Virus record (IMG/VR): IMGVR_UViG_3300037418_002332
Length of the DNA stretch: 64,000 nt
Reading direction: 5' to 3' (one strand)
Source of the DNA: a virus
Taxonomy: Duplodnaviria; Caudoviricetes
Shown here: one piece after another, positions 3,077 to 43,366 of the stretch
Numbering within the stretch: the first letter of the stretch is position 1
Layout of the letters: each line of letters begins with the position of its first letter
Translations under genes and position numbers: made by a program
The notes under the pieces: model-generated
What the model was told of the DNA's origin: nothing
The model's input: only the letters and a program-made list of their open reading frames with translations
Database searches by the model: none

Positions 3077-4102
3077 ATGAAAAAGAGGCAAGTCTCAGAA
3101 ATCCTTCTGAAGCGTGCTATTGGTCGTGAGCCGGAACCGAATTCGGTTATCGACGATGTTTCCTCGGTTTTCAATACCTTTAATGAAAGGAAGAACCGCA
3201 AGGACGCAATCGGATTTTTCGAAGCCTATATGGCTGAGAAGAACCCTGAGTTTCTGAAGGAACGTGACTACTCGAAGCTTGAGACGACCGTCGGTTGGAT
3301 CGCTCGGCTTCTGACTTTGAATTGCTCGTTGCCATCCGAAACCGTGGAATGGTTCAATCGTAAGGTTGACGCATTCCCGGCTGCTACCGCCAAGCCGGTT
3401 GCGAATATGGCTTCGGTTCGTGATAGTCTGGAAATTCGGACAATCGCTGAAATCGAAGAAAAATTCGACCGCAATGAAACTGAATCCTTTGATTGGCTGA
3501 AAGGCCAGCAACTGCCGAAGTCGGTGATCAAGGCGATCGACCGTATCTTCCGCGGAAGGCTGGAGGAACTTGATCTGATCGACACCGACGATCAGGTTCG
3601 TGAAGCGTTTTCGGTATTTACTCCGAAGGAAATCAAGGGTATGAAGGATTCGCTTTCCCGCCTTCTCAATGTGTTCGGTTCTACCGAAGGCGCTGAGGAA
3701 GTGGTGAAGCGTGGCCGTCAGTCAAAAATTAAGACGGCAAAGGAAATCGCCCAGTGGATGACTGTGGCTGGTGATGACGCAGACACTGGTCTGAAGGGAT
3801 TGCCGGCTGAGAAAATTGTTGGTGCGACGACCGTTGTTGTCTATCGACCAGACCACCGAACCCTGACGATCTTTACGGCTCTCGAGGGAAAGACCTTGAC
3901 CGTTAAGGGAAAATCAATTATGAATCATGATCCGGAGAAGAGTTTCGCCAAGTCTGTCCGTAATCCGGAGAAACTTGCGGCTCACTTCCTGGTCAAGAAC
4001 CATAAGCGGCTGATGGCGGCATTTGAAACCCTGAACACTAAAGCGAGGCCGCAGACAACTTCCCTGATTTCTGCAAATCATATGTTGATCTCCGCCTTTT
4101 AA
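3077..4102 (+). CDS. hypothetical protein (341 aa), GC-richer codon usage
   Basis: GGAG SD and ATG at 3077. Long ORF rich in CTG/CCG/GCG/ACC codons. Confidence 0.75.
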   Translation: MKKRQVSEILLKRAIGREPEPNSVIDDVSSVFNTFNERKNRKDAIGFFEAYMAEKNPEFLKERDYSKLETTVGWIARLLTLNCSLPSETVEWFNRKVDAFPAATAKPVANMASVRDSLEIRTIAEIEEKFDRNETESFDWLKGQQLPKSVIKAIDRIFRGRLEELDLIDTDDQVREAFSVFTPKEIKGMKDSLSRLLNVFGSTEGAEEVVKRGRQSKIKTAKEIAQWMTVAGDDADTGLKGLPAEKIVGATTVVVYRPDHRTLTIFTALEGKTLTVKGKSIMNHDPEKSFAKSVRNPEKLAAHFLVKNHKRLMAAFETLNTKARPQTTSLISANHMLISAF

Positions 4103-4110
4103 GGAGAGAA

Positions 4111-4416
4111 ATGAATAACGTCCTTATCTACCCAAAATTTAAGAAGACTGATCTAAAAGAGATCGTAAGTGACGCGGATATGGACAGTGTAGCTAATCAC
4201 TACACTGTCCAGTTTATGAAGGCAATGGAGAACCACGGCATTAACGCCGACCCTGCCTTCTATAAAGACCTGACCTTCCTTCGTGAAATGGTTAAGGCAA
4301 TATTGCTCCGAACCCAAGGCAAGCACCATTCGATCCAAGACTTTATGGACGATGCGTACATTGATGAAATGCCTTTCGATGAGGATGCCGATTACAATGA
4401 AGAGGATGAGCATTGA
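4111..4416 (+). CDS. hypothetical protein
   Basis: AAGGAG SD; 101-aa ORF with an acidic tail. Confidence 0.65.
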   Translation: MNNVLIYPKFKKTDLKEIVSDADMDSVANHYTVQFMKAMENHGINADPAFYKDLTFLREMVKAILLRTQGKHHSIQDFMDDAYIDEMPFDEDADYNEEDEH

Positions 4417-4610
4417 AAACGTTTGATGAATGGTTTGATGAAAAATTTCCAGAAGAATCATTCGGTTCACTCAAAGGCGCATTTCGTTTAGGAGTGAAAA
4501 ATGATATCGCTCGCAAAGCTTATGAATTTGCTGTGGCGAGTTCCGCATTGATTGCTGATTCATATTTGGACGGCACAGAAATTTCAAATGATATCAGAAA
4601 CCTAAAATGA
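4413..4610 (+). CDS. hypothetical protein
   Basis: 65-aa ORF overlapping both neighbours by 4 nt. Confidence 0.5.
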   Translation: MKTFDEWFDEKFPEESFGSLKGAFRLGVKNDIARKAYEFAVASSALIADSYLDGTEISNDIRNLK

Positions 4611-5473
4611 TCCTAGTTGATTTTAACAACGTGGTGTTTGCCGGCATCATGGCCCAGTTGGGTGAGTTCGGCGGCAAGTTTGAGGAAGGCTTAATCCGTC
4701 ATATGGTATTGACCTTCATACTAAGCTACAAGCGCAAATATCCTGGGTATGGAGAGCTCGTTCTTTGTTGTGATGGTGGTAACCCATGGCGTAAGGATTA
4801 CTTCGAACACTACAAGGCGCGACGTAAGGCAAAGCCGGTTGAAGGCGAGGCTGATGAGGCTGCTGAATCCGATGACTCATTGGATATGGAGGAGTTCTTC
4901 CGTATCCTAAACGTTGTCCGTGAGGAAATGAAAGCCCGAATGCCTTACAAGGTGATTCAGGTTTACAGAACCGAAGGCGACGACGCTATTGCGGTTCTAG
5001 CTAAGCATATGCCCGGTCCTCATGTCGTCATATCCAACGATAAGGATTTTACGCAACTTTGTAAGTTCGATGGATTGATACATTTCTCACCATTGCGTAA
5101 GGGTGAAGTGAAAACGGCCAATGCGGATATGTTTTTGAAAGAAATGATCATTCGCGGTGACGCGGGTGACGATGTTCCGAATATTCTGTCTGACGATGAC
5201 GTGTTTGTCGTTAAGGAAAAGCGGCAAAAGTCAATCATGGCTAAGAAGCTCGTCAATTGGCTCGTTGAACCTCTTGAACAAAACTTCGATGCAGATAAAA
5301 TCGAACGCAATCGACGAATGATTGATTTTGAAGAAATTCCTCAAGAATATGTCGATAAAATTTTGGGTGAATATGAATCCCAAAAAGACAAACGCATCAC
5401 TCGTCAAGATATCTTTGGTTATTTTGTCGCCAAGAAACTGTCGCGAATGGTTGATATGATTCAGCATTTCTGA
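4607..5473 (+). CDS. rnh: T4-like RNase H / 5'-3' exonuclease
   Basis: 'MILVDFNN', 'WRKDYFEHYKARR', 'EGDDAIA', 'ISNDKDFTQL' and 'IIRGDAGDDVPNI' are FEN/T4 RNase H motifs. Confidence 0.93.
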   Translation: MILVDFNNVVFAGIMAQLGEFGGKFEEGLIRHMVLTFILSYKRKYPGYGELVLCCDGGNPWRKDYFEHYKARRKAKPVEGEADEAAESDDSLDMEEFFRILNVVREEMKARMPYKVIQVYRTEGDDAIAVLAKHMPGPHVVISNDKDFTQLCKFDGLIHFSPLRKGEVKTANADMFLKEMIIRGDAGDDVPNILSDDDVFVVKEKRQKSIMAKKLVNWLVEPLEQNFDADKIERNRRMIDFEEIPQEYVDKILGEYESQKDKRITRQDIFGYFVAKKLSRMVDMIQHF

Positions 5474-5474
5474 G

Positions 5475-5481
5475 CTAAATA
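5475..5481 (+). promoter_or_regulatory. T4-type late promoter variant (CTAAATA)
   Basis: CTAAATA in the intergenic gap after rnh, about 27 nt before the ATG at 5509. Confidence 0.45.
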
Positions 5482-5508
5482 TTTAAACAATTTAAACAAG
5501 GAACTAAC

Positions 5509-5940
5509 ATGAAATATGCTATCTCAGAAATTTTAGAATTGGCTAATGAAGCATGGGGCAAAAAGCGTAAGATCGCTGCTCTTCATGAACATTCAGGACC
5601 TCAATTGAAAGTGATTCTCGATTATTGCTACAATCCAAACATCAAGTGGCTTGTCGATCCTGATATGAAATATGATCCATGTGACGATAATCTCAACTCC
5701 CTCCGTACTCGCCTGTTTACAGAAGCTGCCAGCCTTAACAGATTTGTAAACATTGGGCCTTATCCTACTCTCAATCAAAAGAAACGCGACCTGTTGTTCC
5801 AGACAGTGTTGGAAACAATCCATCCAAAGGATGCTGAGTTGCTCCAATTCATCGTGAAGAATCGCGCTCTTCCATACAACAAACTCAATAAGGAAACAAT
5901 CGCAGAAGCATTTCCAATTCTGTCACAAAACTGGGGATAA
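5509..5940 (+). CDS. conserved T4-like hypothetical protein downstream of rnh
   Basis: AAGGAA SD; 'ILDYCYNPNIKW' and 'LETIHPKDAELL' match a family commonly found next to rnh. Confidence 0.7.
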   Translation: MKYAISEILELANEAWGKKRKIAALHEHSGPQLKVILDYCYNPNIKWLVDPDMKYDPCDDNLNSLRTRLFTEAASLNRFVNIGPYPTLNQKKRDLLFQTVLETIHPKDAELLQFIVKNRALPYNKLNKETIAEAFPILSQNWG

Positions 5941-5949
5941 CATTTTGTT

Positions 5950-6360
5950 ATGGCTAAAACATGGTGGTTGCGAAAACGGTTGACTCCAGATCAAAGGAGT
6001 GAACTTCGTACCGAAATAATGAAGGTTGACGTCGATGCATATTGGGAAGAGCACGAAACAGACAAATCTATCATTAGCCTTGGCCGGTTGAACACCTGGA
6101 TTCAACCGGATGAAAAAGGAACTGTGATAGTGTTCCAAGACAATTCATTATTTTCTCTTCGCAATTGGCAAGAAGTCGTCAAAATAACTGAGTTAGAATC
6201 AGGACCACTTTTAGCAATCAAACCTATTGGTGGAATTCATGTTGAAAATATTCGCTTGATTAAGAACCAAAAAGTTTCATTCAAAATACATTCAGACAAA
6301 TGGAAAAATTTTGATACATTGATTTTGTCTGAATGGTTCATAGCAGGATTTGATTTGTGA
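5950..6360 (+). CDS. LEDW-family paralogue 1 (unknown function)
   Basis: N-terminus 'WWLRKRLTPDQRSEL'; C-terminus 'LILSEWFI'. Confidence 0.7.
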   Translation: MAKTWWLRKRLTPDQRSELRTEIMKVDVDAYWEEHETDKSIISLGRLNTWIQPDEKGTVIVFQDNSLFSLRNWQEVVKITELESGPLLAIKPIGGIHVENIRLIKNQKVSFKIHSDKWKNFDTLILSEWFIAGFDL

Positions 6361-6752
6361 GTCATTGGTTCGTACAAAAATCCATTGCTGTTCGAGATCA
6401 TGTTGAACTACATAGACTTCTAACAAAAGCCGGAACCGTTTTTGAAGACCTCCTTTGGTATGAAACTGATGGCTATTCGGTGATCAGTTTCACAGGATTA
6501 TCTCAATGGTTGCTTGAGTGGAATAAACATTTCAGAGACGTCAAGGAATTGTATCTCATATATCATGATGAGGTAATTCCAAGACCTGTGAAGATTGATA
6601 AATTGGTGCAATTGGATAATGCAATTCAATTCCACTATGAGCTTGGTTTTAGAAACGTTCGTGACCGACAAATTGTTAATCTTCATCTGAAGCATATAGA
6701 TTGGGATTTTGTCATTCATTTAGAAGATTGGGAAGTGGTTAGAGTGGACTGA
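6357..6752 (+). CDS. LEDW-family paralogue 2
   Basis: GTG start overlapping the previous stop; 'WFVQKSI...HVEL' and 'IHLEDWEV'. Confidence 0.7.
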   Translation: MSHWFVQKSIAVRDHVELHRLLTKAGTVFEDLLWYETDGYSVISFTGLSQWLLEWNKHFRDVKELYLIYHDEVIPRPVKIDKLVQLDNAIQFHYELGFRNVRDRQIVNLHLKHIDWDFVIHLEDWEVVRVD

Positions 6753-7156
6753 TGATATCTGAGTGGCGCATTCAAAAATATTTGACGCTTCCTCAACGAA
6801 CCGAATTGACCAAAATGATTGGCGGTTGGTTACTAGTTGATATGTTTGATGATCAAACAGATAGCTACATCAGTTGCGCAATGTTTGATGAATGGGCTAG
6901 AATGTACGGTGATCGGGCTATTATACATGTTTGGTGGAAAGATGCGACAAAAATTTGGCACGAAAGAAAATTTCGTGGATTTGAAGAAGGCAGATCATCA
7001 GGTAAACTGTTTGCAAATATCTTTGATGTCAATGGAAAAGAATCTTCTATGCTATTTAATGTCGGAAGCGATATCTCAATGTCCGTTGAACTTGATACAT
7101 GGCCGAATGAAATTTTGTTTCTCGAACATTGGAAAGTTGGGAAGGGCAGACAATAA
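6752..7156 (+). CDS. LEDW-family paralogue 3
   Basis: 'WRIQKYLTLPQRTEL' and 'LFLEHWKV'. Confidence 0.7.
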   Translation: MISEWRIQKYLTLPQRTELTKMIGGWLLVDMFDDQTDSYISCAMFDEWARMYGDRAIIHVWWKDATKIWHERKFRGFEEGRSSGKLFANIFDVNGKESSMLFNVGSDISMSVELDTWPNEILFLEHWKVGKGRQ

Positions 7157-7554
7157 TGTATCATTGGTACATCAGAAAACCTTTGTATGATCAGGATCAC
7201 GAGGAGTTGGGCAAACATTTTTTAGCTGGCTATCGTCGTGAAAAAGATGATGAAGGTGATTGGTATTCTCAACTTGATATTGAAATATTGATGAAAATGA
7301 TTGATATGCCAGAATTGTTAGAAGTGAAAGTTTTTCATCTTCCAATTTTTGATCGTTTGATGAAATTAAAAATGATTACTGATGAAGGTGATTTGTTACA
7401 CTTCCAAATTTGGGATCAAGAATTACAAAGAACTCGAGTGATAGATATTGCCTACGGTGAAGGAATTTCAGTATCAATTGATTTGTTAAAACAAACCGAT
7501 TTCTTGTTATATCTTGAAGGTTGGACATTGGGTAGAAAATGGGTTGGACGATAG
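7156..7554 (+). CDS. LEDW-family paralogue 4
   Basis: TAATG coupling puts the start at 7156 rather than the track's 7129; 'WYIRKPLYDQDHEEL' and 'LYLEGWTL'. Confidence 0.7.
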   Translation: MYHWYIRKPLYDQDHEELGKHFLAGYRREKDDEGDWYSQLDIEILMKMIDMPELLEVKVFHLPIFDRLMKLKMITDEGDLLHFQIWDQELQRTRVIDIAYGEGISVSIDLLKQTDFLLYLEGWTLGRKWVGR

Positions 7555-7925
7555 TCAAAGTTCTTAGCAATTCTCTTACGGATGATTTCAACAATCATTT
7601 CAAAGGAAAGAGCATTTCCAAAGTTAATGAAATGACTGCCTATGAATCAGAAGCGATCATTTTCTTGGAATCATTCGTGACTTTGACCAGTAAACATACT
7701 GATGAATTTGCTTGTTATTTGTATGAAGAGGACAAAAAGTACAAAATTTCTTCAATTAAACATTCAAGACAATTTGTCGATTTTGAACTTTTTCCACCTG
7801 CACTACCAACTGGTGATGAATATAGAACATATGAACACGGTGATGTGATAAATTTGGAATTGGAAACAAGTGACCTTTCTGTGTTTCTTGAAAACTGGGT
7901 TCTGTTGAATGAGGACGGCAGATGA
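7539..7925 (+). CDS. LEDW-family paralogue 5
   Basis: 'WTIVKVL' and 'VFLENWVL'. Confidence 0.65.
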   Translation: MGWTIVKVLSNSLTDDFNNHFKGKSISKVNEMTAYESEAIIFLESFVTLTSKHTDEFACYLYEEDKKYKISSIKHSRQFVDFELFPPALPTGDEYRTYEHGDVINLELETSDLSVFLENWVLLNEDGR

Positions 7926-8209
7926 AAATCTCAGGCAAAACAGTTGATTACAAAATTGTGGTAGATGAGGTGTTCGAATTCATCGACACCCATGGTTTGC
8001 CATTAGATTATGTATTGACTTATCTTCATGAACGTAATATGGAAATGGACTGGCTTGCGTTCTTCTTAGATGCTAAGAAAGCCGGTTGGAATATCTCAAC
8101 GATCAAATCGAAAAGTATGGCTGCTGTCGCTGATGCGTTCGGTGGTCGTTCCGTCAGGACACTGGCGATAAATGACAGAATTGCTAAAGCATTGGACCCA
8201 TTCTTATGA
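7922..8209 (+). CDS. small protein resembling a helical segment of alanyl-tRNA synthetase
   Basis: 'VFEFIDTHGLPLDYV...ERNMEMDWLAF' parallels the AlaRS 'AFKLYDTYGFPLDLT...ERGLTVD..GF' segment. Confidence 0.55.
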   Translation: MKISGKTVDYKIVVDEVFEFIDTHGLPLDYVLTYLHERNMEMDWLAFFLDAKKAGWNISTIKSKSMAAVADAFGGRSVRTLAINDRIAKALDPFL

Positions 8210-8766
8210 AAACTGCATTGATTATTGGAAACGGTGTTTCCCGGAAAAAACTCAATCTGCATGCTTTACCGCCTGAAGGTTTCACAACCTTTGGGTGCAA
8301 CGCATTATATCGAGAGTTCACTCCTGATTGGTTAGTGGCCTTGGACGATAAAATCATTGAGGAGATCAATCAATCCGATTTCCCCAAGGATCGCTTCTAT
8401 GTACCGCCTTTCGATGAGCAGTTCGAGCCTGCCATATACAATCCCAGTCGGCCTAGGGAGAACGCTGGCATGATCGCTATGCGTTTGGCGATCCAGCTAG
8501 GTTATGATAATTTAGAGCTCATAGGATTGGATTTTTTGGTGGAAGATGGCGTGCTGAATATGGCTAACATTTATGATGGCACGAATGCCTATGGGCCTGA
8601 AACACGGGCAAGTTATTTTGATTGCATTATGCGTTCTGAATATTTCAGATGGTTTGTTAAACAAAATCCGACTGTGAAGTTCAAGGTTATCTATCCTGAA
8701 AGTTTTATCACCGACCATGCTGTACGTGTGGCTCCAATGGACAATTTTGAATATGCGGTGTTCTGA
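8206..8766 (+). CDS. Rossmann-like protein of the MptE/DUF115/sialyltransferase-like group
   Basis: 'ALIIGNGVSR', 'FGCNALYRE', 'PDWLVALD' and 'LELIGLDF' motifs. Confidence 0.55.
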   Translation: MKTALIIGNGVSRKKLNLHALPPEGFTTFGCNALYREFTPDWLVALDDKIIEEINQSDFPKDRFYVPPFDEQFEPAIYNPSRPRENAGMIAMRLAIQLGYDNLELIGLDFLVEDGVLNMANIYDGTNAYGPETRASYFDCIMRSEYFRWFVKQNPTVKFKVIYPESFITDHAVRVAPMDNFEYAVF

Positions 8767-9173
8767 TGTTTTACATTTTCAAGGAAATTCCTATTTGGGA
8801 TGTTGCAACAGACCTTGAAAAAATTATTGCCAAATCCCATGTCACAATTTTGGGTGACATGGTACGCATTGATTTAAGCAGTTCTTTAGCGGTTATGTTG
8901 GAAGTAAGAAATTATGTTGGCTATTTTCTTGCTGAAGGTCAACGATGGAAAATTGATTATCATGCCCCCACCACACCAGAATTTGCTCAATTGATGTTTG
9001 GTCGTGGTGATGGAAAGCCGGCATATTATGTCACTGGGGTTTCAGAAAAGAATAAGGAAAAGAAAACTCATTACATTCTGAATGAAACTTTGACCACATT
9101 TGAATTTGAAAATGATTATCAACATATCGTTTTTGAAGATTGGCTAGCAAAGGATATTCCTCTTGAGCGCTGA
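8766..9173 (+). CDS. LEDW-family paralogue 6
   Basis: 'YIFKEI...TDLE' and 'IVFEDWLA'. Confidence 0.65.
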   Translation: MFYIFKEIPIWDVATDLEKIIAKSHVTILGDMVRIDLSSSLAVMLEVRNYVGYFLAEGQRWKIDYHAPTTPEFAQLMFGRGDGKPAYYVTGVSEKNKEKKTHYILNETLTTFEFENDYQHIVFEDWLAKDIPLER

Positions 9174-9561
9174 AGTTAATGTTGAACTTTGCAAATTCAT
9201 ACATCCTGACAGTGCACAGGAATTGATGGAACATCTTTATGATCCATCGAAAATCGTATCAGACGTCGTCAATATGAAATACACTTTGTATATTCCTTGG
9301 CGGACTTTAATCCAAGAATCAGTACAATTGCGTGCTGAACTTCTCATAAAACGTATTGACACGCTTGATTTCGAAAAACTCACTGGTTGGAAAGCTTATA
9401 GAGTTAAAAAGTTTAGTGGTTCATATGAAGAATTTTGCGTAAGGACCAACTACGATGATGAATGGTTTTCTTATAGAACTAGTCAATTGATTACTGTGAG
9501 ATTGAAATATTATTCTGATCTCATTATTGATTTGGAAGATTGGGGCATTTCATGTACATAG
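9163..9561 (+). CDS. LEDW-family paralogue 7
   Basis: 'ELCKFIHPDSAQEL' and 'IDLEDWGI'. Confidence 0.65.
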   Translation: MSAEVNVELCKFIHPDSAQELMEHLYDPSKIVSDVVNMKYTLYIPWRTLIQESVQLRAELLIKRIDTLDFEKLTGWKAYRVKKFSGSYEEFCVRTNYDDEWFSYRTSQLITVRLKYYSDLIIDLEDWGISCT

Positions 9562-9923
9562 TGAAAACAATGGATAGAGAAGCTGCTAGAGAACTCAACA
9601 AATTATTGTATATGGATGTAACATTTTACGATAATGACTCTGACGAAGTTCAGGTGAAAATTCATCATTCTGATATACTCAATCCATTGAATGATGGATT
9701 TCAGCAGTTGATATTCAAACAGAAAATGCCAAATGGTTTGAATATGGATTATGAAATTTCAACACTTTCCGAAGATAACACCTTTGATAATGCTCATTTG
9801 GTATTGCATGACATGGCTGGTGATCCATTAGCCAGCTTTTCTCGTGGTTCGGATTGGAATTGTATAATCCATACAAATAAACATATGATTGAACTTGAAG
9901 ATTGGGTTATTGACGACGCATGA
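9552..9923 (+). CDS. LEDW-family paralogue 8
   Basis: ATG at 9552 (track start 9540); 'YIVKTMDREAAREL' and 'IELEDWVI'. Confidence 0.65.
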   Translation: MYIVKTMDREAARELNKLLYMDVTFYDNDSDEVQVKIHHSDILNPLNDGFQQLIFKQKMPNGLNMDYEISTLSEDNTFDNAHLVLHDMAGDPLASFSRGSDWNCIIHTNKHMIELEDWVIDDA

Positions 9924-10291
9924 GTATTTTCATCTGGAAATACATCGCTGGTGTTAACGTTGAACAATCAAGGGAAATACATAACACATTTCCCTACATG
10001 ATCACAAAATGGAATGAAATGTCATACGATTTGTATTTTGATGATTTGTTGAAACATTGGGATATCTATCTGAAGATGTCAGATGAACCTAGATACATCA
10101 GAAATGTACGCGAAGCTGACAACAAAGATTTAACTGTTGGACATATGTTCATCATTGAGTTTGTTAATCCTTTGTTAAGTGATTTCAAACTTTGGTATGG
10201 TGATGATCATGATTATATTTTGAAATCGAAAAAGACTGGTGAAGTCGTTCACCTTGAAGAATGGTCAATTGGAAATAATATTGAAACATGA
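9920..10291 (+). CDS. LEDW-family paralogue 9
   Basis: ATGA overlap; 'FIWKYI...QSREI' and 'VHLEEWSI'. Confidence 0.65.
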   Translation: MSIFIWKYIAGVNVEQSREIHNTFPYMITKWNEMSYDLYFDDLLKHWDIYLKMSDEPRYIRNVREADNKDLTVGHMFIIEFVNPLLSDFKLWYGDDHDYILKSKKTGEVVHLEEWSIGNNIET

Positions 10292-10707
10292 AACCACAAT
10301 TGTTTCTTCAAAAGACTTTAACTCAATCTCAATATGATGAGTGGACTAGCCATATTCCGGCGAAATATTTCAACAAAATGTATGCAACAAATCCCAATGG
10401 TCAAAGAATAGTTTTGATTGAATTTGAAGTCATTGAATACTGGAAACATTTGATGTTTGGAAATGACGGTTCGAATTCAGTAAAAATTCACATAATAGGG
10501 GAATGGCACTCAATTGTTAAATTTGATATTTTGACTTATCCTGACAAACCAGAAAAATATGGTATCCAAACTCAATTGATGTCTCCACTAGGAGCATATT
10601 CCAATTATTCTCATCATTATCAAGATCAAATGGAATTTAGAAATATCAGATTTTTAATTGGTAACCTAACAATTGAGCTTGATAAATGGAGAATGGTTAT
10701 ATCATGA
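10288..10707 (+). CDS. LEDW-family paralogue 10
   Basis: ATGA overlap; 'LFLQKTLTQSQYDEW' and 'IELDKWRM'. Confidence 0.65.
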   Translation: MKPQLFLQKTLTQSQYDEWTSHIPAKYFNKMYATNPNGQRIVLIEFEVIEYWKHLMFGNDGSNSVKIHIIGEWHSIVKFDILTYPDKPEKYGIQTQLMSPLGAYSNYSHHYQDQMEFRNIRFLIGNLTIELDKWRMVIS

Positions 10708-11120
10708 AACGCATTATCCTAGTCAAAAAGATGAAGTTTTTGACATTTATGATGCTTAGTCGTACTCTTGAAGGTGCAGGTGTCACTTTATCTTCAAATG
10801 AAACTCCAATTGGTTATTCTGATGTCTACATTGATTTTGAAAAACTTTCGAAATATGTCAATCAAAGGGATGAATGCATTTGGTTCGGAACTAGAGTTAT
10901 GGATGGTCTTCCACCAAATTATAATTTTAGAACTGAAGAAGTTACTCATAGAGTATCAAGCGATGGTACCGATAAACTTGGTTGGGATTTAATAAGTAGC
11001 AAAACCGCCAGTCATGGTGTCAGAAAAGAAGTATATGATCCATTGAGAACATATTGCTTTAGAATTGAAGGTCCTGATCGAATAGTTGATCTGGAAGATT
11101 TCACTATAGAACTCAGATAA
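10704..11120 (+). CDS. LEDW-family paralogue 11
   Basis: ATGA overlap gives a start at 10704 (track 10686); 'IILVKKM' and 'VDLEDFTI'. Confidence 0.6.
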   Translation: MKRIILVKKMKFLTFMMLSRTLEGAGVTLSSNETPIGYSDVYIDFEKLSKYVNQRDECIWFGTRVMDGLPPNYNFRTEEVTHRVSSDGTDKLGWDLISSKTASHGVRKEVYDPLRTYCFRIEGPDRIVDLEDFTIELR

Positions 11121-11122
11121 AA

Positions 11123-11129
11123 CTAAATA
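11123..11129 (+). promoter_or_regulatory. T4-type late promoter variant (CTAAATA)
   Basis: CTAAATA followed by the GAGG SD of the 11147 ORF. Confidence 0.45.
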
Positions 11130-11146
11130 ACCATGTAAGAGGAAAA

Positions 11147-11395
11147 ATGCCTAATTATAACTTCTACGATCCTAAAACTCGCAAAACTGTAACTTTGGAA
11201 ATGAAAATTTCCGAGTTAGACACATTTCTCAAAGACAATCCTCATTTACAACAAACTCTTCAACCTATTCCATCAGTTGATCCTCATGCTGTAGGCAGAA
11301 CACGCACAGATTCGCGGTTCAGAGATGTGTTGAAAAAGATAAAGCGAGACCAACCAGGATCTACCATTCGTACTGATAATATAACTGAAATCTAA
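11147..11395 (+). CDS. FmdB-like small protein (Cys-less zinc-ribbon homologue)
   Basis: 'MPNYNFYDPKT' resembles the FmdB 'MPxYxYxC' N-terminus; 'FRDVLKKIK' is typical of T4-like homologues; GAGG SD. Confidence 0.6.
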   Translation: MPNYNFYDPKTRKTVTLEMKISELDTFLKDNPHLQQTLQPIPSVDPHAVGRTRTDSRFRDVLKKIKRDQPGSTIRTDNITEI

Positions 11396-11430
11396 GGGGA
11401 TATCACTGATGGAAATCATAAAGGATTTCC

Positions 11431-12216
11431 ATGTTAAATTCAGATCTAAAACAAAAATCATACCTATCTGATGAGGAAATTGAACAATTCTTCGATACAC
11501 CTAGAAAGGCTCGCAAAGGCAAAAGAAATAAGCAAGAGGCTGCACCTGCTCCTCATTATGGTTTGAAAGAAATTTCCCCGTTGACTAGAACGCAGGCAGA
11601 AATTTTTGAGTCATATTTCAATTCAAATCAAAATATGTTTCTTCATGGTTACGCAGGCACTGGTAAATCCTTTATATCCTTGTATTTGCTCATGTCGCAA
11701 ATGATGAATGATTCCTCATTCAAGAAGTTGAAAATTGTTAGATCAACTGTTCCAAGTCGTGACCAAGGTTTCTTGCCTGGTTCCGCTGCTGAAAAAGCGA
11801 AGATTTATGAAGCTCCTTACCAAGCAATCTTCACTGAATTGTTTGGTCGTTCCGATGCCTACGATTATTTCAAACGTCGTGGTTTGGTAGAATTTGAAAG
11901 CACTTCATATCTTCGTGGTACAACTTGGAATGATACGCTGGTTTTGTTTGATGAATTTCAAAACACCAGTTATAATGAAGCTATGACAGTTTTGACCAGA
12001 ATCGGTGACAACTGCCGTATCATTGTTTCCGGTGACTTCCATCAAACTGACTTGAAACGTGATGACGAAAAACGTGGTATCCTTGATATCATCAAAATTT
12101 TGAAGAAAGTCAATCTTGTTGATTTCTTTGAATTCAAGAAAGAAGACATTGTAAGAAGTGGGTTCGTTCGTGAACTCATCCTAGCTGAGGCGAAATATAA
12201 ATTTGAGAAGTCTTAA
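11431..12216 (+). CDS. phoH: PhoH-like ATPase
   Basis: Walker A 'GYAGTGKS', 'GFLPGS...K...Y', 'YLRGTTW', Walker B 'LFDEFQN' and 'GDFHQTDL'. Confidence 0.93.
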   Translation: MLNSDLKQKSYLSDEEIEQFFDTPRKARKGKRNKQEAAPAPHYGLKEISPLTRTQAEIFESYFNSNQNMFLHGYAGTGKSFISLYLLMSQMMNDSSFKKLKIVRSTVPSRDQGFLPGSAAEKAKIYEAPYQAIFTELFGRSDAYDYFKRRGLVEFESTSYLRGTTWNDTLVLFDEFQNTSYNEAMTVLTRIGDNCRIIVSGDFHQTDLKRDDEKRGILDIIKILKKVNLVDFFEFKKEDIVRSGFVRELILAEAKYKFEKS

Positions 12217-12889
12217 TCAGACCATACAACGTGACTTCCCTAGAGTGGAGTTGGAGCAAAAGGTTATAACCGAAGTTTCAACTCCACGCGGAAGATATTA
12301 TGAAACACCTGCCGGTTGTTTCCCATCCGTGACTAATGTTCTTTCATCTAAGGACAATCCTGAGCTGGATGCATGGCGACAAAGGGTTGGTGATGAGGAA
12401 GCTGATCGAATCAGTCGAGAAGCAACCAATCGTGGGTCACGTATGCATGATCTATTCGAATCATATTTGCGGGGGAAGGAGATTTCTTTCCCCCATCCCA
12501 CAATTAAGGAACATTTTCTTCAAGTCAAAAAAGAACTCGACAAAATCGAGTTGATCTACGCAAATGAAATTCCACTCTATAGCAAATATCTGAAGGTCGC
12601 TGGACGTTGCGATTGCATTGGTGTGGTAGACGGTATCATCAAAATCATCGACTTCAAAACATCCAAACACTTCAAGGTTTTTGAGCAGATTGAAAGCTAT
12701 CGTATGCAATGTGCAGCATATGCTTTCATGGCTAACGAAATATATGACTTGAAAATAAATAAGTTTTCAGTTATAATAACGAATCTTTACGAAAACGCAT
12801 CCACGGTTTTTGAGGGTGACGCTCGTGAATCAATCAAAGCTTTTTGGGAATTAAGACAAAAATGGGATATGATTTCAACCAATTCTTGA
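12203..12889 (+). CDS. PD-(D/E)XK exonuclease (T4-like phage exonuclease, Cas4-related fold)
   Basis: 'RYYETP', 'PSVTNVL', 'RGSRMHDLFESYL', 'AGRCDCI', 'IIDFKTS' and 'QCAAYA' motifs; sits next to phoH as in other T4-like phages. Confidence 0.88.
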   Translation: MRSLNQTIQRDFPRVELEQKVITEVSTPRGRYYETPAGCFPSVTNVLSSKDNPELDAWRQRVGDEEADRISREATNRGSRMHDLFESYLRGKEISFPHPTIKEHFLQVKKELDKIELIYANEIPLYSKYLKVAGRCDCIGVVDGIIKIIDFKTSKHFKVFEQIESYRMQCAAYAFMANEIYDLKINKFSVIITNLYENASTVFEGDARESIKAFWELRQKWDMISTNS

Positions 12890-13152
12890 AAAGATATGTT
12901 TACATCATAGACATAGATAGATACGATGACGAAAAGGACAGAATGTTCTTGAATAAAATCGAAGAAGTGGTAAACAAGTTCTTCGGTGAACCAGTTGTCA
13001 ATCTGATCGTATTACCATCACCACGTGAGGATGTATCTTCGAAAAACATATATGCTGTATATGATAATGAGGAGCATCCTTTTGATGATGGTTTTGTGGC
13101 TGATGTCGTTAAGAAAACGATAAAGGCATTTGGAGTGAAAATAGGAGACTAG
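12886..13152 (+). CDS. hypothetical protein
   Basis: TTGA overlap with the exonuclease stop suggests a start at 12886 (track 12844). Confidence 0.55.
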   Translation: MKRYVYIIDIDRYDDEKDRMFLNKIEEVVNKFFGEPVVNLIVLPSPREDVSSKNIYAVYDNEEHPFDDGFVADVVKKTIKAFGVKIGD

Positions 13153-13296
13153 ATGAATAACACGCGAATATTCAATGATAAAAATGTGACTAAGCTTGAT
13201 GCATTCTTGGAGTATCTCTTTTCTCACAAGACTGCTTACACGGTACAAGCTAAAAAAGAGAATGGTGAAATGATTTTTGTAATAAGGTATGAGTAA
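13153..13296 (+). CDS. small hypothetical protein (47 aa), not in the track
   Basis: AGGAG SD at 13143-13147, ATG at 13153; MNNTRIFNDKNVTKLDAFLEYLFSHKTAYTVQAKKENGEMIFVIRYE; TAATG coupling to the next gene. Confidence 0.6.
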   Translation: MNNTRIFNDKNVTKLDAFLEYLFSHKTAYTVQAKKENGEMIFVIRYE

Positions 13297-13523
13297 TGGC
13301 AAAAATTTACGATCGGTATTTCATTCAAATCAAGAAAACTTCCAAACCAACTTTGGTCAAGAAGAGGAAAGAGTTTATGGAATTGCTTCTTAAAACTCTC
13401 AGTGACGATGCTGAGGCTCAACTTGATCTATTGAATAAATTTGGGACGAGTGTCGTTGCCAAAACGGCGAATGGCAGCGACGTTAGTGTGATTGTGGACG
13501 GCGAGAGAACTTTTAAGATTTAG
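13296..13523 (+). CDS. hypothetical protein
   Basis: 75-aa coupled ORF; its stop overlaps the gp16 stop on the opposite strand. Confidence 0.55.
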   Translation: MAKIYDRYFIQIKKTSKPTLVKKRKEFMELLLKTLSDDAEAQLDLLNKFGTSVVAKTANGSDVSVIVDGERTFKI

Positions 13524-29112: not shown

Positions 29113-29724
29113 TCACTTTTGAACTTTCACCATTACAGTTTGATGCTTCAAATATTCTTTCAAAATTGTCAATTCACCCAATTTGGATAAAAATTCAATT
29201 CCTCTAGTTCTTTCTCTGACATCAGTTATGATAATACATCCATCTTTTGCTTGTGCTTTAATTTTGTCAAAGTATTCAGTTATTGGGAAATGAAATCCCC
29301 AAGCAATAGTAGATATGATCAAGTCCAATTCCACATTCGGAAACTCATTTTTATTTCCGTCATAGATATTGATATGTTCTATTGGTATACCATTTCTATT
29401 CAAAAATGCGGAAGTCAAATTCAAATCGCAATAAATGCTACCTTCATCGAACCCATATACAACATCATCAGATTTACCATGCTTATCCAATAAATGAAAA
29501 TTTGGTTTGTTATCATAATGTTCATTCAAAAGACAATTTATGGCGCCCATACCACAACCAATATCCAAAATGTTAGTCGCTGATTCTGGCAAGTATAGTT
29601 TTATAGCATCAAACTGATTTACAACACCATCATAAAAATCATCACCAAAATTATTTGACTTGTTTAATGCAGTTCTCTGTAACTTGAGATATTCAATTTC
29701 ATCTTCATTGATGGGTGATAGCAT
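29113..29724 (-). CDS. class I SAM-dependent methyltransferase
   Basis: 'NILDIGCGMG', 'LLDK' and 'DLIISTIAWGFH' motifs. Confidence 0.8.
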   Translation of the reverse strand: MLSPINEDEIEYLKLQRTALNKSNNFGDDFYDGVVNQFDAIKLYLPESATNILDIGCGMGAINCLLNEHYDNKPNFHLLDKHGKSDDVVYGFDEGSIYCDLNLTSAFLNRNGIPIEHINIYDGNKNEFPNVELDLIISTIAWGFHFPITEYFDKIKAQAKDGCIIITDVRERTRGIEFLSKLGELTILKEYLKHQTVMVKVQK

Positions 29725-29742
29725 TTACTTTCCTTAATGTGC

Positions 29743-29774
29743 TGACAGGACCTTAGTAAAACTGAGGCCCTGCC
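29743..29774. terminator. hairpin / probable terminator after the acidic protein
   Basis: GACAGGACCTTAGT / ACTGAGGCCCTGCC pairs with G-U on the - strand. Confidence 0.5.
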
Positions 29775-29795
29775 AAGAAAAATTTTTATAGAGAA

Positions 29796-30266
29796 TTATT
29801 CGGATGCTTGATCAGTAACAACTGGAGACTCTGATTCAATCGGCGTAGCCGGTGAATCTACGGGAGCCTCAGTTTCGACTACTGGAGATGTTTCCACAGG
29901 AGTTTCGACAGGAGCGTAAACTGCTACAGGAACTTCGACAACAGGTTCAGCAGGAGCAGGTTCACTTACTTCTTCTGCAGGAGCGGAATCAGCCACAGGA
30001 GTATCAACAACGACTGGATCAGCAGCTTCGACAGGATCGGAAGGCTCATCGCCAACAGCACCTGTGTCACTGGTATCATCAGTACCATCTACATCACCTT
30101 CATCTTCAACAATATCAACGTCATCACCTTCAGTATCAACTTCATCTTCACCACCGAACAAGTCTTCAATTTCTTCAATTACTTCTTCGACGAGCTCTTC
30201 AACTTTCTCTTCAACAACGGTCAATTTTTCTTCGACCCATTCAACAACTTCTTTAATATCTGGCAT
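29796..30266 (-). CDS. highly acidic low-complexity protein
   Basis: AAAGGA SD and CTAAATA (30295-30301) upstream; E/D/V/P/A-rich with only 3 Lys and no Arg. Confidence 0.7.
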   Translation of the reverse strand: MPDIKEVVEWVEEKLTVVEEKVEELVEEVIEEIEDLFGGEDEVDTEGDDVDIVEDEGDVDGTDDTSDTGAVGDEPSDPVEAADPVVVDTPVADSAPAEEVSEPAPAEPVVEVPVAVYAPVETPVETSPVVETEAPVDSPATPIESESPVVTDQASE

Positions 30267-30366
30267 TTGCTATCCTTTTGGTTAGAGGCACTACTATTTA
30301 GGCAGTGAACCATCCTGAAAGGCACCGTAACCAAAAGTTTACCAAAATTTAAAGTTCGAAGAAGTC

Positions 30367-31878
30367 TTAGAACTTGACGATAATCTTAACGTCTTCTTGT
30401 TGATCAGATGAACGGCTGATAGGTGAACGATTTTCGATATACAATAGCTTGCCCTGATATTTCTTTAGATCAGGCTTTGTAATACCAACAACTGTAGCAG
30501 TAGCACCGGATGTACCACCAGTGATAGTTTCATTGTTAGCGAACAATGTCACATTACCAGTGACCATCAATACTGTATTGGAATGATATTCAACTGAGTA
30601 AGCAGTTGCACCACTTGTACCACCAGTAACAACTTCGTCAGCAGTAAAGGTCAAGGAAGGGTTGTCAAGTGTCAAACGAGTTGTTTGGTCATAGGTTGTA
30701 TCAGTAGCAACAGTGTTAGCAACCAATTCAACTGGATCAACGATCAGGCCAACTGTACGGAAATCATTAGCGATGAAGAATGTATTGGACTCAGAACCAG
30801 TCATCTTAACGTTCATGATGATATTGTGCGCAAATAGTTCACTGACCGCATCCTTACCATGACCACCTACAGGTGAAACTTGGGCATCAATGGTAGCACC
30901 TGAACCAGTGTTCGCTGTAACTGTACCAGTGACACGAGTATAGTTTGAACCTGGAACGATAACATTGATCTTGGAAATCTGTCCACCTGATACTCGGCTG
31001 ATCGCCTTTGCACCAGTACCATCGCCAGAAATATTAACAGTTGGACTAACGATATATGTTGAACTTGTATCTACAGCTGGTGAGAATGCCGGTGATACAG
31101 TGATTTGCTTGGTAGCACCATCGTAGTCAACGATTGAACGAATTTGACCAGCACCTGTACCGGATGCAATGTATACTGTGCTGAAATTGTAAATGTTATT
31201 TGTAGAGTTCGCAGTTGGTTGAAGTCTGGCAGTAGTTGTACCACCCAGCACAATCGCGCCAGAATGTTCCTTATAGTTTGAACCACCAGTCGTAACCAAT
31301 ATTGAACTCAATGAGCCATTAACCGCAGCTTGTTGGACGGCCCATTGGTCTGAACCGTCATCTGATGCCAGCACCTTAGTCGGAATAATTTTCGTTGTAC
31401 TGAACTTCAATGCGTCAGCAGCTGTGACAGTGTACATATATTTCCAAACATAACCATCACCAGTGGTCAAATTGGAAGTAGAACGACCTGTAGGCTTTAC
31501 AGTACTTGGAACGCCACCATTGTTATAGATGCACTTGTAAACATAAAAGTCTTCAGTAATGACATAGAAACGATTATTTGAAAAGAATTCAGTGTCACTG
31601 GTGTACTGGTCATAGACTGTACCTGATGTCCAATCCACTCTATCTACACCATATGAAACGTCCGATGGTGTAATACGCTTCAATGCCAACATATTGTCCC
31701 AAACATTGTAGACCGTTTCATTGGTCGTATCAAGTGGTTCAGGTGGTGAATTTTCGTTGTCCCATGGATTTGAACGTGCCAGGAAGAAGTAGATTCTTGA
31801 TGGCGCAGCTTCATCAAACTGTTCGTAGAATTGTTCAGCTGAATGCAATCTGAAATTCTTCGTAATTTTTCCTGGCAT
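30367..31878 (-). CDS. gp8: baseplate wedge subunit
   Basis: 'FRLHSAEQFYE', 'WTSGTVYDQY', 'FYVYKCIYN..G.PSTVKPT', 'DGYVWKYMY' and terminal 'RSSDQQEDVKIIVKF'. Confidence 0.9.
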   Translation of the reverse strand: MPGKITKNFRLHSAEQFYEQFDEAAPSRIYFFLARSNPWDNENSPPEPLDTTNETVYNVWDNMLALKRITPSDVSYGVDRVDWTSGTVYDQYTSDTEFFSNNRFYVITEDFYVYKCIYNNGGVPSTVKPTGRSTSNLTTGDGYVWKYMYTVTAADALKFSTTKIIPTKVLASDDGSDQWAVQQAAVNGSLSSILVTTGGSNYKEHSGAIVLGGTTTARLQPTANSTNNIYNFSTVYIASGTGAGQIRSIVDYDGATKQITVSPAFSPAVDTSSTYIVSPTVNISGDGTGAKAISRVSGGQISKINVIVPGSNYTRVTGTVTANTGSGATIDAQVSPVGGHGKDAVSELFAHNIIMNVKMTGSESNTFFIANDFRTVGLIVDPVELVANTVATDTTYDQTTRLTLDNPSLTFTADEVVTGGTSGATAYSVEYHSNTVLMVTGNVTLFANNETITGGTSGATATVVGITKPDLKKYQGKLLYIENRSPISRSSDQQEDVKIIVKF

Positions 31879-43334: not shown

Positions 43335-43366
43335 CCTATAAATATTTGATCAACATTATTTATAGG
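43335..43366. promoter_or_regulatory. face-to-face pair of T4 late promoters (TATAAATA on both strands)
   Basis: + TATAAATA at 43337-43344 serves gp4; - TATAAATA at 43357-43364 serves gp48; together they form a 10-bp inverted repeat. Confidence 0.8.

What the first reader, a model, noticed from the sequence alone, without database searches (positions are those of the whole stretch)
5950..11120. Tandem array of 11 highly diverged paralogues with shared N- and C-terminal motifs ('LEDW' family)
Eleven ORFs of about 123-140 aa, most overlapping or coupled to their neighbours, share two motifs. The N-terminal one is [W/Y/F]-x-x-x-K-x-[L/I/M]...E-L (WWLRKRLTPDQRSEL, WRIQKYLTLPQRTEL, WYIRKPLYDQDHEEL, YIVKTMDREAAREL). 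The C-terminal one is hydrophobic-x-L-E-[D/E/H/G/N]-W (IHLEDW, LFLEHW, LYLEGW, VFLENW, IVFEDW, IDLEDW, IELEDW, VHLEEW, IELDKW, VDLEDF, LILSEW). The middles are unalignable by eye. Conserved termini around a hypervariable core suggest one scaffold fold with diversified surfaces, for example a repertoire of anti-defence or host-protein binders, or subunits that co-assemble through the termini. I do not recognise the family.
Basis: partly seen in the sequence, partly recalled or inferred. Interest (0 to 1): 0.8.

Follow-up and report, generated by a model that had tools for sequence, protein, structure and literature searches.

The report
Expanded orphan small-protein family, soil phage
An uncultured soil T4-like jumbo phage has multiplied one previously unseen gene for a ~130-residue soluble protein into 14 very diverged copies that keep the same protein ends but differ in the middle; such expansions are known in large phages and usually mark host-interaction genes, but the function here is untested.

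Summary
All 11 ORFs, their sizes, their coupling and every quoted motif are present, and the conservation is at protein level.

- The "array" is two sub-arrays (m01-m05, m06-m11) on either side of two unrelated genes (7922-8766).
- One of those genes, x2, is the ancestral resident of this slot in related phages.
- Three more members lie 113 kb away in the same 247-kb genome, giving 14 in all.
- Two further blocks are shared, so only about 40-60 residues are truly variable.

No Pfam, PHROG, NCBIfam, PADLOC or PDB match was found. Two AlphaFold models (pLDDT 62-63) found no structural neighbour. A profile search of 1.84 billion representative proteins returned only this phage's own genes. Relatives with flanking genes 41-66% identical have none in the main slot and at most one probable copy at the second slot. 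So this is a lineage-specific expansion, and similarity decaying along the array points to local tandem duplication.

My best reading (about 45%) is an early- or middle-expressed panel of binders or inhibitors of host proteins on one scaffold. The precedents are T4 accessory genes such as tifA and nrdC.5.

This scan has reported comparable orphan arrays of other families in other jumbo phages.

The parts
5950..6360 (+). m01, family member (136 aa); N-terminal W-W-L-R-K, C-terminal LILSEW
   Evidence: N-terminal leave-one-out profile rank 1 of 376, C-terminal rank 31. z = 6.0 to m03 and 4.9 to m02.
6357..6752 (+). m02, family member (131 aa, GTG start overlapping the m01 stop); IHLEDW. This member was modelled.
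   Evidence: Leave-one-out full-length E = 2.8e-8, rank 1 of 1234. Rank 1 at both termini. AF2 model pLDDT 63.5.
6752..7156 (+). m03, family member (134 aa); LFLEHW. The only population SNP lies here (C>T at 6959, His70Tyr).
   Evidence: SNP.
7156..7554 (+). m04, family member (132 aa from the ATG at 7156; an alternative TTG start lies at 7129); LYLEGW
   Evidence: z = 6.2 to m02. Terminal ranks 2 (C) and 1 (N). Public gene calls give 132 aa.
7539..7925 (+). m05, family member (128 aa); VFLENW; last gene of the left sub-array
   Evidence: C-terminal rank 1, N-terminal rank 4. z = 4.0-4.4 to m04 and m08.
7922..8209 (+). x1, an unrelated 95-aa gene inside the array; not a family member
   Evidence: No family motif. 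Weak sub-threshold Pfam match to the class II AlaRS core (PF01411, E = 4e-5, 22.8 bits against a cut-off of 30.3). No homologue found in L021 or L022.
8206..8766 (+). x2, an unrelated 186-aa gene; the ancestral resident of this genomic slot
   Evidence: phrog_30607 (E = 1e-13). Homologues 55% (L021) and 47% (L022) identical sit in the same slot between DUF6433 and the 82-aa gene in the closest relatives, which have no family members there.
8766..9173 (+). m06, family member (135 aa); IVFEDW. Membership rests on the C-terminal block and on z = 5.2 to m08.
   Evidence: C-terminal rank 2 of 376, N-terminal rank 135. Not recovered by the full-length leave-one-out profile. z-scores.
9163..9561 (+). 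m07, family member (132 aa, TTG start); IDLEDW
   Evidence: C-terminal rank 1 (E = 5e-6), N-terminal rank 3. Leave-one-out full-length rank 1.
9552..9923 (+). m08, family member (123 aa from the ATG at 9552; an alternative TTG start lies at 9540); IELEDW
   Evidence: N-terminal rank 1 (E = 2.7e-5), C-terminal rank 2. A public gene call gives 123 aa.
9920..10291 (+). m09, family member (123 aa); VHLEEW. It is the array member closest to the second cluster.
   Evidence: C-terminal rank 1. z = 4.0 to n1. Highest mean z to the n-cluster among array members.
10288..10707 (+). m10, family member (139 aa); IELDKW. Membership rests on the N-terminal block, size and position.
   Evidence: N-terminal rank 1, C-terminal rank 24. 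Leave-one-out full-length rank 2. No pairwise z >= 3.
10704..11120 (+). m11, family member (138 aa from the ATG at 10704, which overlaps the m10 stop as ATGA; an alternative ATG lies at 10686); VDLEDF. This is the weakest member.
   Evidence: C-terminal rank 1 (E = 0.11), N-terminal rank 32. Full-length leave-one-out rank 75. No pairwise support.
5509..5940 (+). Conserved upstream flank: DUF6433 gene. It marks the left edge of the plastic slot.
   Evidence: PF20025, E = 1.6e-13. Syntenic in all relatives examined.
11147..12216 (+). Conserved downstream flank: an 82-aa phrog_385 'transcriptional regulator' gene (11147-11395) and PhoH (11431-12216). They mark the right edge of the slot.
   Evidence: 66% and 61% identical in L021.

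Best explanation
SHOWN (about 90% confident). This is one real protein family, expanded in this phage lineage. There are 14 genes for soluble proteins of about 116-139 residues, mostly acidic and rich in tryptophan. Eleven lie in the window as two sub-arrays on either side of an older resident gene (x2). Three lie at a second locus between the endolysin-like gene and the DNA ligase. The window genes sit in a plastic slot of an otherwise conserved T4-type gene string (RNase H, DUF6433, [slot], 82-aa regulator, PhoH, PD-(D/E)XK exonuclease). The closest known relatives have no copy in that slot.

INFERRED from the pattern of similarity. The copies arose by repeated local tandem duplication and then diverged very far. 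The left block m01-m05 is the youngest. In T4, segmental duplication of this kind proceeds through recombination at short microhomologies.

INFERRED from two moderate-confidence models and the conservation pattern. The conserved N-terminal strand-helix (h-x-h-x-K ... E-L) and the C-terminal hairpin (h-x-L-E-x-W) pack together as the invariant core of a small alpha+beta fold. The 40-60 residues in between form the diversified surface.

INFERRED from context only (about 45%). The proteins are made before late transcription. They act as a panel of binders or inhibitors, each copy tuned to a different host protein or to a variant of one. The most likely targets are effectors of anti-phage defence or toxin-antitoxin systems of the soil hosts. 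On this reading the expansion broadens or secures host range.
For: Family reality: (leave-one-out profiles, motif enrichment 11/14 against 0/375, coding frame). Protein-level conservation.

Lineage restriction. The profile search of 1.84e9 representatives returned only the phage's own 14 genes, and the word-index search of 5.8e9 proteins returned only its own. The closest relatives L021 and L022, with flanks 41-66% identical, keep x2 but have no member in the slot. Seven relatives' endolysin-ligase slots hold at most one probable member, L023 8991-9380 (A2 profile E = 0.002, top of 800 ORFs; C-terminal profile rank 2 of 376). The slot is 0.5-2.3 kb in distant T4-like phages and 5.5 kb here.

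Tandem duplication. Adjacent genes are more alike than random pairs (permutation p = 0.046; Spearman rho = -0.28, p = 0.037). Mean z is 3.3 in the left block and 0.6 in the right block.

Scaffold. The m02 and n2 models share the terminal architecture.

Expression class. TATAAATA late promoters occur only at 32-59 kb of the window, with none near the array. The neighbours are replication and nucleotide-metabolism genes.

Protein properties. pI 4.5-7, negative GRAVY, no conserved Cys or His.

Precedents in T4-type phages. tifA, an early 85-aa gene, inhibits the ToxN toxin and is tandemly amplified by microhomology recombination under selection. nrdC.5 overcomes Dsr1. dmd, tifA and adfA form an 'anti-TA island' (PMC9391042). 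Lineage-specific expansions of small proteins are known in jumbo phages, for example about 35 zinc-ribbon copies in Bacillus phage G (PMC7824862).
Against: There is no functional evidence of any kind: no host, no RNA data, no partner, no similarity to any known anti-defence protein and no PADLOC-related hit.

Expression timing is inferred only from the absence of a late-promoter consensus. The sigma-70 promoter scan was at chance level (31 found, 31.3 expected).

The models are only moderately confident and were built from a shallow alignment of paralogues alone. The variable middle is unresolved (pLDDT below 50).

'Absent elsewhere' is weaker than it looks. Left-out members score only 2-31 bits against the profile of the others, but the weakest hit that passed E <= 0.001 in the 1.84e9-protein search scored 36.7 bits. 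Equally diverged homologues in other phages would therefore have been missed. Only partial contigs of the relatives could be examined.

The population is clonal (one SNP), so there is no within-population signal of diversifying selection.

Membership of m06, m10, m11, n1 and n3 rests on one terminal block plus size and position.
Confidence: 0.45

Rival explanations
1. The paralogues are subunits that co-assemble through their conserved termini into a hetero-oligomeric complex or lattice. Translational coupling would set the stoichiometry.
For: Ten of the twelve junctions in the array are overlapping start/stop codons. The conserved terminal strands could be an interface as well as a fold core.
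Against: Three members are encoded 113 kb away. Overlapping junctions are the norm for all small genes in this region, including the unrelated x1 and x2. Copy number seems to vary from 0-1 in relatives to 14 here, which is unusual for an obligate complex. There are no late promoters, as would be expected for a virion component.
Confidence: 0.12
2. The family is a set of small-ligand binders ('sponges' or sensors) on a ferredoxin-like alpha+beta sandwich, like PII, PstA/DarA or ACT domains. It would sequester different signalling nucleotides or metabolites, not proteins.
For: The weak top structural rows for both models fall in this fold class: PII-like, PstA/DarA, ACT, ABM and NIPSNAP.
Confidence: 0.1
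3. The expansion is a largely neutral or selfish by-product of recombination in a plastic region. The copies have no distinct function and are drifting or decaying.
For: Divergence is extreme (10-25% identity). Relatives do without the array. T4-type genomes duplicate segments readily (PMC9391042).
Against: All 14 reading frames are intact and of similar length. They keep phage-typical codon usage, coupled starts and the same terminal blocks after divergence that has erased nearly everything else. That indicates purifying selection on each copy. The headful packaging limit makes 5.7 kb of useless DNA costly (principle stated in PMC9391042).
Confidence: 0.1
4. The shared 'motifs' reflect a nucleotide-level junction element (regulatory, RBS or recombination cassette) repeated at gene boundaries, or are a chance resemblance. 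On this view the ORFs are not homologous.
For: The C-terminal motif of one gene lies only 15-30 nt from the next start. The purine-rich tails provide Shine-Dalgarno-like sequences.
Against: The motif leucine uses the codons TTG, TTA, CTC, CTT and CTG, and the tails differ in length and sequence. No DNA repeat longer than 33 nt at 65-82% identity was found. The last genes of each block (m05, m11, n3) keep the motif although no family gene follows. Co-linear full-length similarity exists among m01-m05, and leave-one-out profiles recover the members.
Confidence: 0.03

Closest known systems
T4 early accessory counter-defence genes: tifA (61.4), dmd, adfA, nrdC.5 (Srikant, Guegler and Laub 2022, eLife, PMC9391042)
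   Same: Small soluble proteins encoded in non-late, plastic regions of a T4-type genome. They are lineage-variable. tifA was shown to be tandemly amplified by microhomology recombination under selection from a host defence. The different genes neutralise different host toxins or defence proteins.
   Different: No sequence similarity was detected (Pfam and PHROG scans negative). The experimental tifA amplifications are identical recent repeats, whereas these are 14 anciently diverged copies. No target is known here.
Lineage-specific expansions of small proteins in jumbo phages, such as the ~35 zinc-ribbon copies of Bacillus phage G (Iyer et al. 2021, PMC7824862); comparable orphan arrays noted by this scan in 121Q/PBECO4-like coliphages
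   Same: One small-protein family is multiplied within a single large-phage lineage, is absent or rare in relatives, and has no known function.
   Different: This is a different protein family: no zinc ligands, about 130 aa, alpha+beta. The host environment is soil and the phage is T4-like.
Multigene families and 'genomic accordions' of large eukaryotic DNA viruses (poxvirus K3L amplification, Elde et al. 2012, as cited in PMC9391042; the comparison with ASFV MGF families is from my own knowledge)
   Same: Tandem duplication of host-interaction genes followed by divergence of the copies.
   Different: Eukaryotic viruses and unrelated proteins. This is an analogy of process only.
Tandem arrays of diverged immunity proteins in bacterial polymorphic-toxin loci (for example Imm11, PF07791)
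   Same: Small alpha+beta proteins in back-to-back arrays of very diverged paralogues, each neutralising a different toxin. An Imm11-containing cluster was the first row of the Atlas shape search.
   Different: That match is at noise level (TM 0.33 by the model, 65 residues). There is no Pfam hit, the genes are phage-encoded, and no toxin genes are adjacent.

Membership tests
Any curated protein family (Pfam-A, PHROGs v4, NCBIfam, PADLOC) | Significant profile-HMM match | tested here: not met
   Pfam and PHROGs on m01-m10: nothing below E = 0.01 and nothing above a curated cut-off. m11 against PHROGs: none. All 14 against PADLOC and NCBIfam: only single chance hits, E = 0.0055 and 0.017.
T4 NrdC.5-type family (Pfam DUF7235) and other named T4 accessory families | Sequence match to the family model | tested here: not met
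   No such family appears among the Pfam hits at E <= 1 for m01-m10. m11, n1, n2 and n3 were not scanned against Pfam.
Polymorphic-toxin immunity proteins (Imm11, PF07791) | Profile match or a clear fold match, plus an adjacent toxin gene | tested here: inconclusive
   No Pfam hit. Atlas TM is 0.33 by the query and 0.50 by the row over 65 residues. No toxin-like neighbour was found.
Lineage-specific tandem expansion (a genomic phenomenon, not a protein family) | Several paralogues in tandem | tested here: met
   5 + 6 + 3 adjacent genes recovered by leave-one-out profiles. Similarity decays with distance along the array.
Lineage-specific tandem expansion (a genomic phenomenon, not a protein family) | Absent or low-copy in the nearest relatives at syntenic positions | tested here: met
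   None in the DUF6433-PhoH slot of L021 and L022. Zero or one copy in seven endolysin-ligase slots. Caveat: only partial contigs of the relatives were available.
T4 internal proteins (IPI-III type) | N-terminal capsid-targeting sequence ending in a head-protease site, with late expression | not tested
   No formal test was run. There are no late promoters nearby, and the proteins are acidic, not basic.

The most novel reading that the evidence does not exclude
The 14 genes are a phage-encoded repertoire of binders on a previously unseen small alpha+beta scaffold. The scaffold is clasped shut by its conserved N- and C-terminal strands. The repertoire was built by accordion-like tandem duplication and diversification, and each copy neutralises a different host defence effector or toxin. 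That would make it a bacteriophage counterpart of the multigene host-range families of large eukaryotic DNA viruses, and a new fold class of anti-defence proteins.
Probability: 0.3. Interest if true: 0.7.

Novelty: new variant of a known kind. Interest (0 to 1): 0.5.

Why it matters
Lineage-specific expansions are among the few sequence-only signals that point to genes engaged in the virus-host arms race. This one offers 14 natural variants of a single, apparently new scaffold in one genome. That is a ready-made panel for screening against defence systems and for asking how a phage diversifies a binder.

It also shows, with syntenic relatives, where and how a T4-type genome grows: on both sides of an older gene, inside a conserved replication-gene string.

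The value is limited for now because the phage is uncultured, its host is unknown, no transcript data exist, and the phenomenon itself (orphan paralogue arrays in jumbo phages) is already known.

Tried and rejected
1. DNA similarity to sequenced phages (megablast and blastn) and tblastn of m02 against 50,697 phage records gave no match.

2. IMG/VR and JGI metagenome scans through the flanking genes found only distant relatives (<= 37% identity) with no family member in 753 ORFs.

3. Protein-language-model atlas on m02 and m07: no usable hit.

4. Fold searches of both models in PDB (Foldseek and VIA-align wide) and the ESM Atlas, and of the m02 model in BFVD: nothing above noise.

5. PDB sequence profile search: only E > 3.

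6. Complex prediction for the adjacent pair m02 + m03: 'no answer' (score 0.02 against a mark of 0.32). This is neither support nor evidence against binding.

7. Sequencing runs: seven soil or rhizosphere DNA holders and no RNA holder listed. Contigs laid on the array showed a clonal population with one SNP, so no selection analysis was possible.

8. A mid-protein conserved histidine that I suspected from the first alignments is not stably aligned, so I dropped it.

9. Junction-DNA-element hypothesis: rejected on codon evidence.

10. Control hits were inspected and dismissed. The deaminase-like ORF c14 (z = 3.8) and the small membrane ORFs at genome 42-48 kb that match the loose motif are chance matches.

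11. The weak profile hit to L022 1108-1584 belongs to a different expanded family. hhalign of that family against this one gives probability 0.02%.

12. Sigma-70 promoter and terminator scans were at or near chance level. No Rfam family matched at 4000-13500.

13. The genome search on the relatives' records was not possible because those records are not held.

Full report
SETTING

The window is positions 137197-201196 of a single 247,119-bp contig. It is a T4-type myovirus. It has a T4-type RNase H, PhoH, a portal, a tail sheath, baseplate wedge proteins and a large terminase. The T4 late-promoter consensus TATAAATA is enriched, with 7 sites against 2.4 expected, but only within the structural block at 32-59 kb of the window.

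The phage is deep-branching. Its portal protein is at most 49% identical to that of any sequenced phage. Only soil and rhizosphere DNA metagenomes hold this DNA. All other assemblies of it are 99.97-100% identical, with the same gene layout.

THE OBSERVATION

The 11 ORFs, their lengths and every quoted motif are present. From 5509 to 11395 the + strand is packed with genes that mostly overlap by 1-16 nt.
- Genes x1 (7922-8209) and x2 (8206-8766) are unrelated and split the set into m01-m05 and m06-m11.
- A full-length profile also picks up three adjacent genes 113 kb upstream, at genome positions 29313-30460 (n1, n2, n3), which have the same ends. That makes 14 members.

IS IT MORE THAN CHANCE?

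Pairwise similarity is extremely low, at 10-25% identity.
- Smith-Waterman z-scores against shuffles are higher within the family than against 20 size-matched control proteins of the same genome (Mann-Whitney p = 5e-4).
- Only m01-m08 are connected by pairs with z >= 3. m09 links to n1 and n2. m10, m11 and n3 have no pairwise support.

The position-specific signal is much stronger.
- The strict C-terminal pattern, placed 5-10 residues before the stop, is in 11 of 14 members and in 0 of 375 other genes.
- That pattern was derived after seeing the family, so I ran a non-circular test. I built profiles of only the first or last 28 residues from 13 members and ranked the left-out member among the termini of all genes.
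- Every member ranks in the top 3 of 376 for at least one end. Twelve do so by the C-terminus, and m01 and m10 do so by the N-terminus.

All 14 code best in the annotated frame, with codon usage typical of this phage.

The motifs are protein-level. The motif leucine uses five different codons, the DNA between the motif and the stop is not conserved, and no substantial DNA repeats exist. This disposes of the idea that a junction DNA or RNA cassette is what is conserved.

A more careful alignment shows two further shared blocks:
- h-[D/S]-F-x-x-L-x-x-[W/Y] in the first half;
- an alternating-hydrophobic strand just before the last strand.
The truly variable part is therefore about 40-60 residues with many indels.

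WHAT IT IS NOT

No Pfam, PHROG, NCBIfam or PADLOC family matches. A PDB sequence profile search finds nothing.

AlphaFold2 models of m02 (pLDDT 63.5, pTM 0.54) and of n2 from the other locus (pLDDT 62.3, pTM 0.55) agree on three points:
- an N-terminal strand followed by a helix;
- a C-terminal beta-hairpin that carries the L-E-x-W strand;
- a middle modelled below pLDDT 50.

DISTRIBUTION

A profile of the 14 was searched without a word index against 1.84 billion representative proteins. It returned 14 hits, all from this phage; one is a single-residue variant. The word-index search of 5.8 billion proteins also returned only its own genes.

There is an important caveat. Left-out members score only 2-31 bits against the profile of the others. 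The weakest hit that passed E <= 0.001 in the 1.84e9-protein search scored 36.7 bits. Homologues as diverged as the paralogues are from each other would therefore have been missed.

For that reason I looked at syntenic slots in relatives, where the search space is small.

Distant T4-like phages:
- They conserve the string RNase H, DUF6433, PhoH, PD-(D/E)XK exonuclease, with 0.5-2.3 kb between DUF6433 and PhoH. Here the gap is 5.5 kb.

Closer relatives at the main slot, found through DUF6433 (L021 and L022, flanking genes 41-66% identical):
- They keep long synteny: Macro, AAA, glutaredoxin, glycosyltransferase, RNase H, DUF6433, 82-aa regulator, PhoH, exonuclease, neck genes.
- They have a clear x2 homologue in the slot (55% and 47% identity) but no family member.
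- So x2 is the ancestral resident, and the family genes were added on both sides of it.

Relatives at the second locus, found through the DNA ligase (53-62% identical):
- They conserve the order capsule-synthesis-like gene, endolysin-like gene, small genes, ligase.
- Only one carries a probable member: L023 8991-9380, 126 aa, which starts I-S-T-F-K-K-F and ends with a hairpin whose last strand reads L-H-L-K-D-F.
- It is the top hit of 800 ORFs (E = 0.002). It ranks 2nd of 376 by the C-terminal profile and 3rd by the full-length profile.

The family therefore probably pre-dates this phage at low copy, perhaps at the endolysin-ligase locus. m09 is the array member closest to that cluster. The family was then expanded to 14 in this lineage.

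HOW THE ARRAY AROSE

Neighbouring genes are more alike than random pairs (permutation p = 0.046; Spearman rho = -0.28, p = 0.037). The left block is much more coherent than the right, with mean z 3.3 against 0.6. This is the signature of stepwise local tandem duplication, with the left block younger.

In T4 such segmental duplications arise readily by recombination at 6-10-bp microhomologies. They are selected when they raise the dose of an early counter-defence gene, tifA against ToxN (PMC9391042).

MOST LIKELY FUNCTION (INFERENCE)

The proteins are small, soluble and mostly acidic, with no transmembrane segment or conserved Cys/His. They are encoded among replication genes, away from late promoters. 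They are dispensable in relatives and were multiplied and diversified in one lineage.

In T4-type phages, genes with this profile that have been studied are inhibitors of host defence proteins or toxins: dmd, tifA, adfA, nrdC.5 and ipIII (PMC9391042).

I therefore favour, at about 45%, a panel of binders or inhibitors on one scaffold, in which the conserved terminal strands close the fold and the middle carries the specificity. The rivals are:
- co-assembling subunits (12%);
- small-ligand sponges on a ferredoxin-like fold (10%);
- a largely neutral expansion (10%);
- a DNA-level or chance artefact (3%).
The remainder is 'something else'.

The complex prediction for m02 + m03 gave no verdict and is not used as evidence.

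NOVELTY

The protein family is new to every library searched. The kind of thing is known: an orphan small-protein family expanded in one jumbo-phage lineage. The ~35 zinc-ribbon copies of Bacillus phage G are one example (PMC7824862), and this scan has reported similar arrays of other families in other jumbo phages. Hence 'new variant of a known kind', with moderate interest.

Noticed in passing
window 8206-8766 (x2); L021 8029-8610; L022 10980-11555: The 186-aa gene inside the array is conserved at 55% and 47% identity in the same slot of the nearest relatives. It matches only phrog_30607 (unknown function), and very weakly the N-terminus of CST-I sialyltransferase through a G-N-G nucleotide-binding-like start. 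It is the older resident of the slot.
   Followed up: partly
window 7922-8209 (x1): This 95-aa ORF has a sub-threshold Pfam match to a 44-residue stretch of the class II alanyl-tRNA synthetase core (PF01411, E = 4e-5, 22.8 bits against a cut-off of 30.3). It has no homologue in L021 or L022.
   Followed up: partly
genome 24129-25559 (L001:130-1557), outside the window; L022 174-1587 and 16819-18369: A second expanded orphan family of 153-166-aa proteins, with an N-terminal [F/L]-x-D-h-[D/E]-F block and a central F-h-x-x-h-h-[Y/F]-[H/Q] helix. There are 3 copies here and, as far as the motif-level alignment A5 goes, 6 copies in two clusters in relative L022. It is unrelated to the LEDW family (hhalign probability 0.02%).
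   Followed up: partly
window 4607-12889; loci L009, L014, L016, L017, L021, L022: The gene string RNase H, DUF6433, [variable slot], PhoH, PD-(D/E)XK exonuclease is conserved across very distant T4-like phages. The slot between DUF6433 and PhoH varies from 0.5 to 5.5 kb. In L022 it also holds a GIY-YIG homing-endonuclease-like gene (11552-11851).
   Followed up: yes
window 6959: The only variant seen across four soil metagenome runs and the JGI contigs is C>T at 6959, which changes His70 to Tyr in m03. The population is otherwise clonal over the 6.1 kb examined.
   Followed up: yes
window 32004-59533: All seven TATAAATA sites (T4 late-promoter consensus; 2.4 expected by chance) lie in the structural-gene block. 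Two face each other at 43337 and 43357, between divergent genes.
   Followed up: partly
window 11147-11395: The 82-aa gene just downstream of the array (phrog_385, annotated 'transcriptional regulator') is one of the best-conserved small genes of the region: 66% identical in L021 and 43% in L022. It always directly precedes PhoH.
   Followed up: partly
genome 27858-29297 (L001:3859-5295), outside the window: The gene upstream of the second cluster encodes a 479-aa three-part cell-wall enzyme (GH108 lysozyme-like, peptidoglycan-binding and M15 peptidase domains). It is conserved with a capsule-synthesis-like gene in all relatives of this clade.
   Followed up: no
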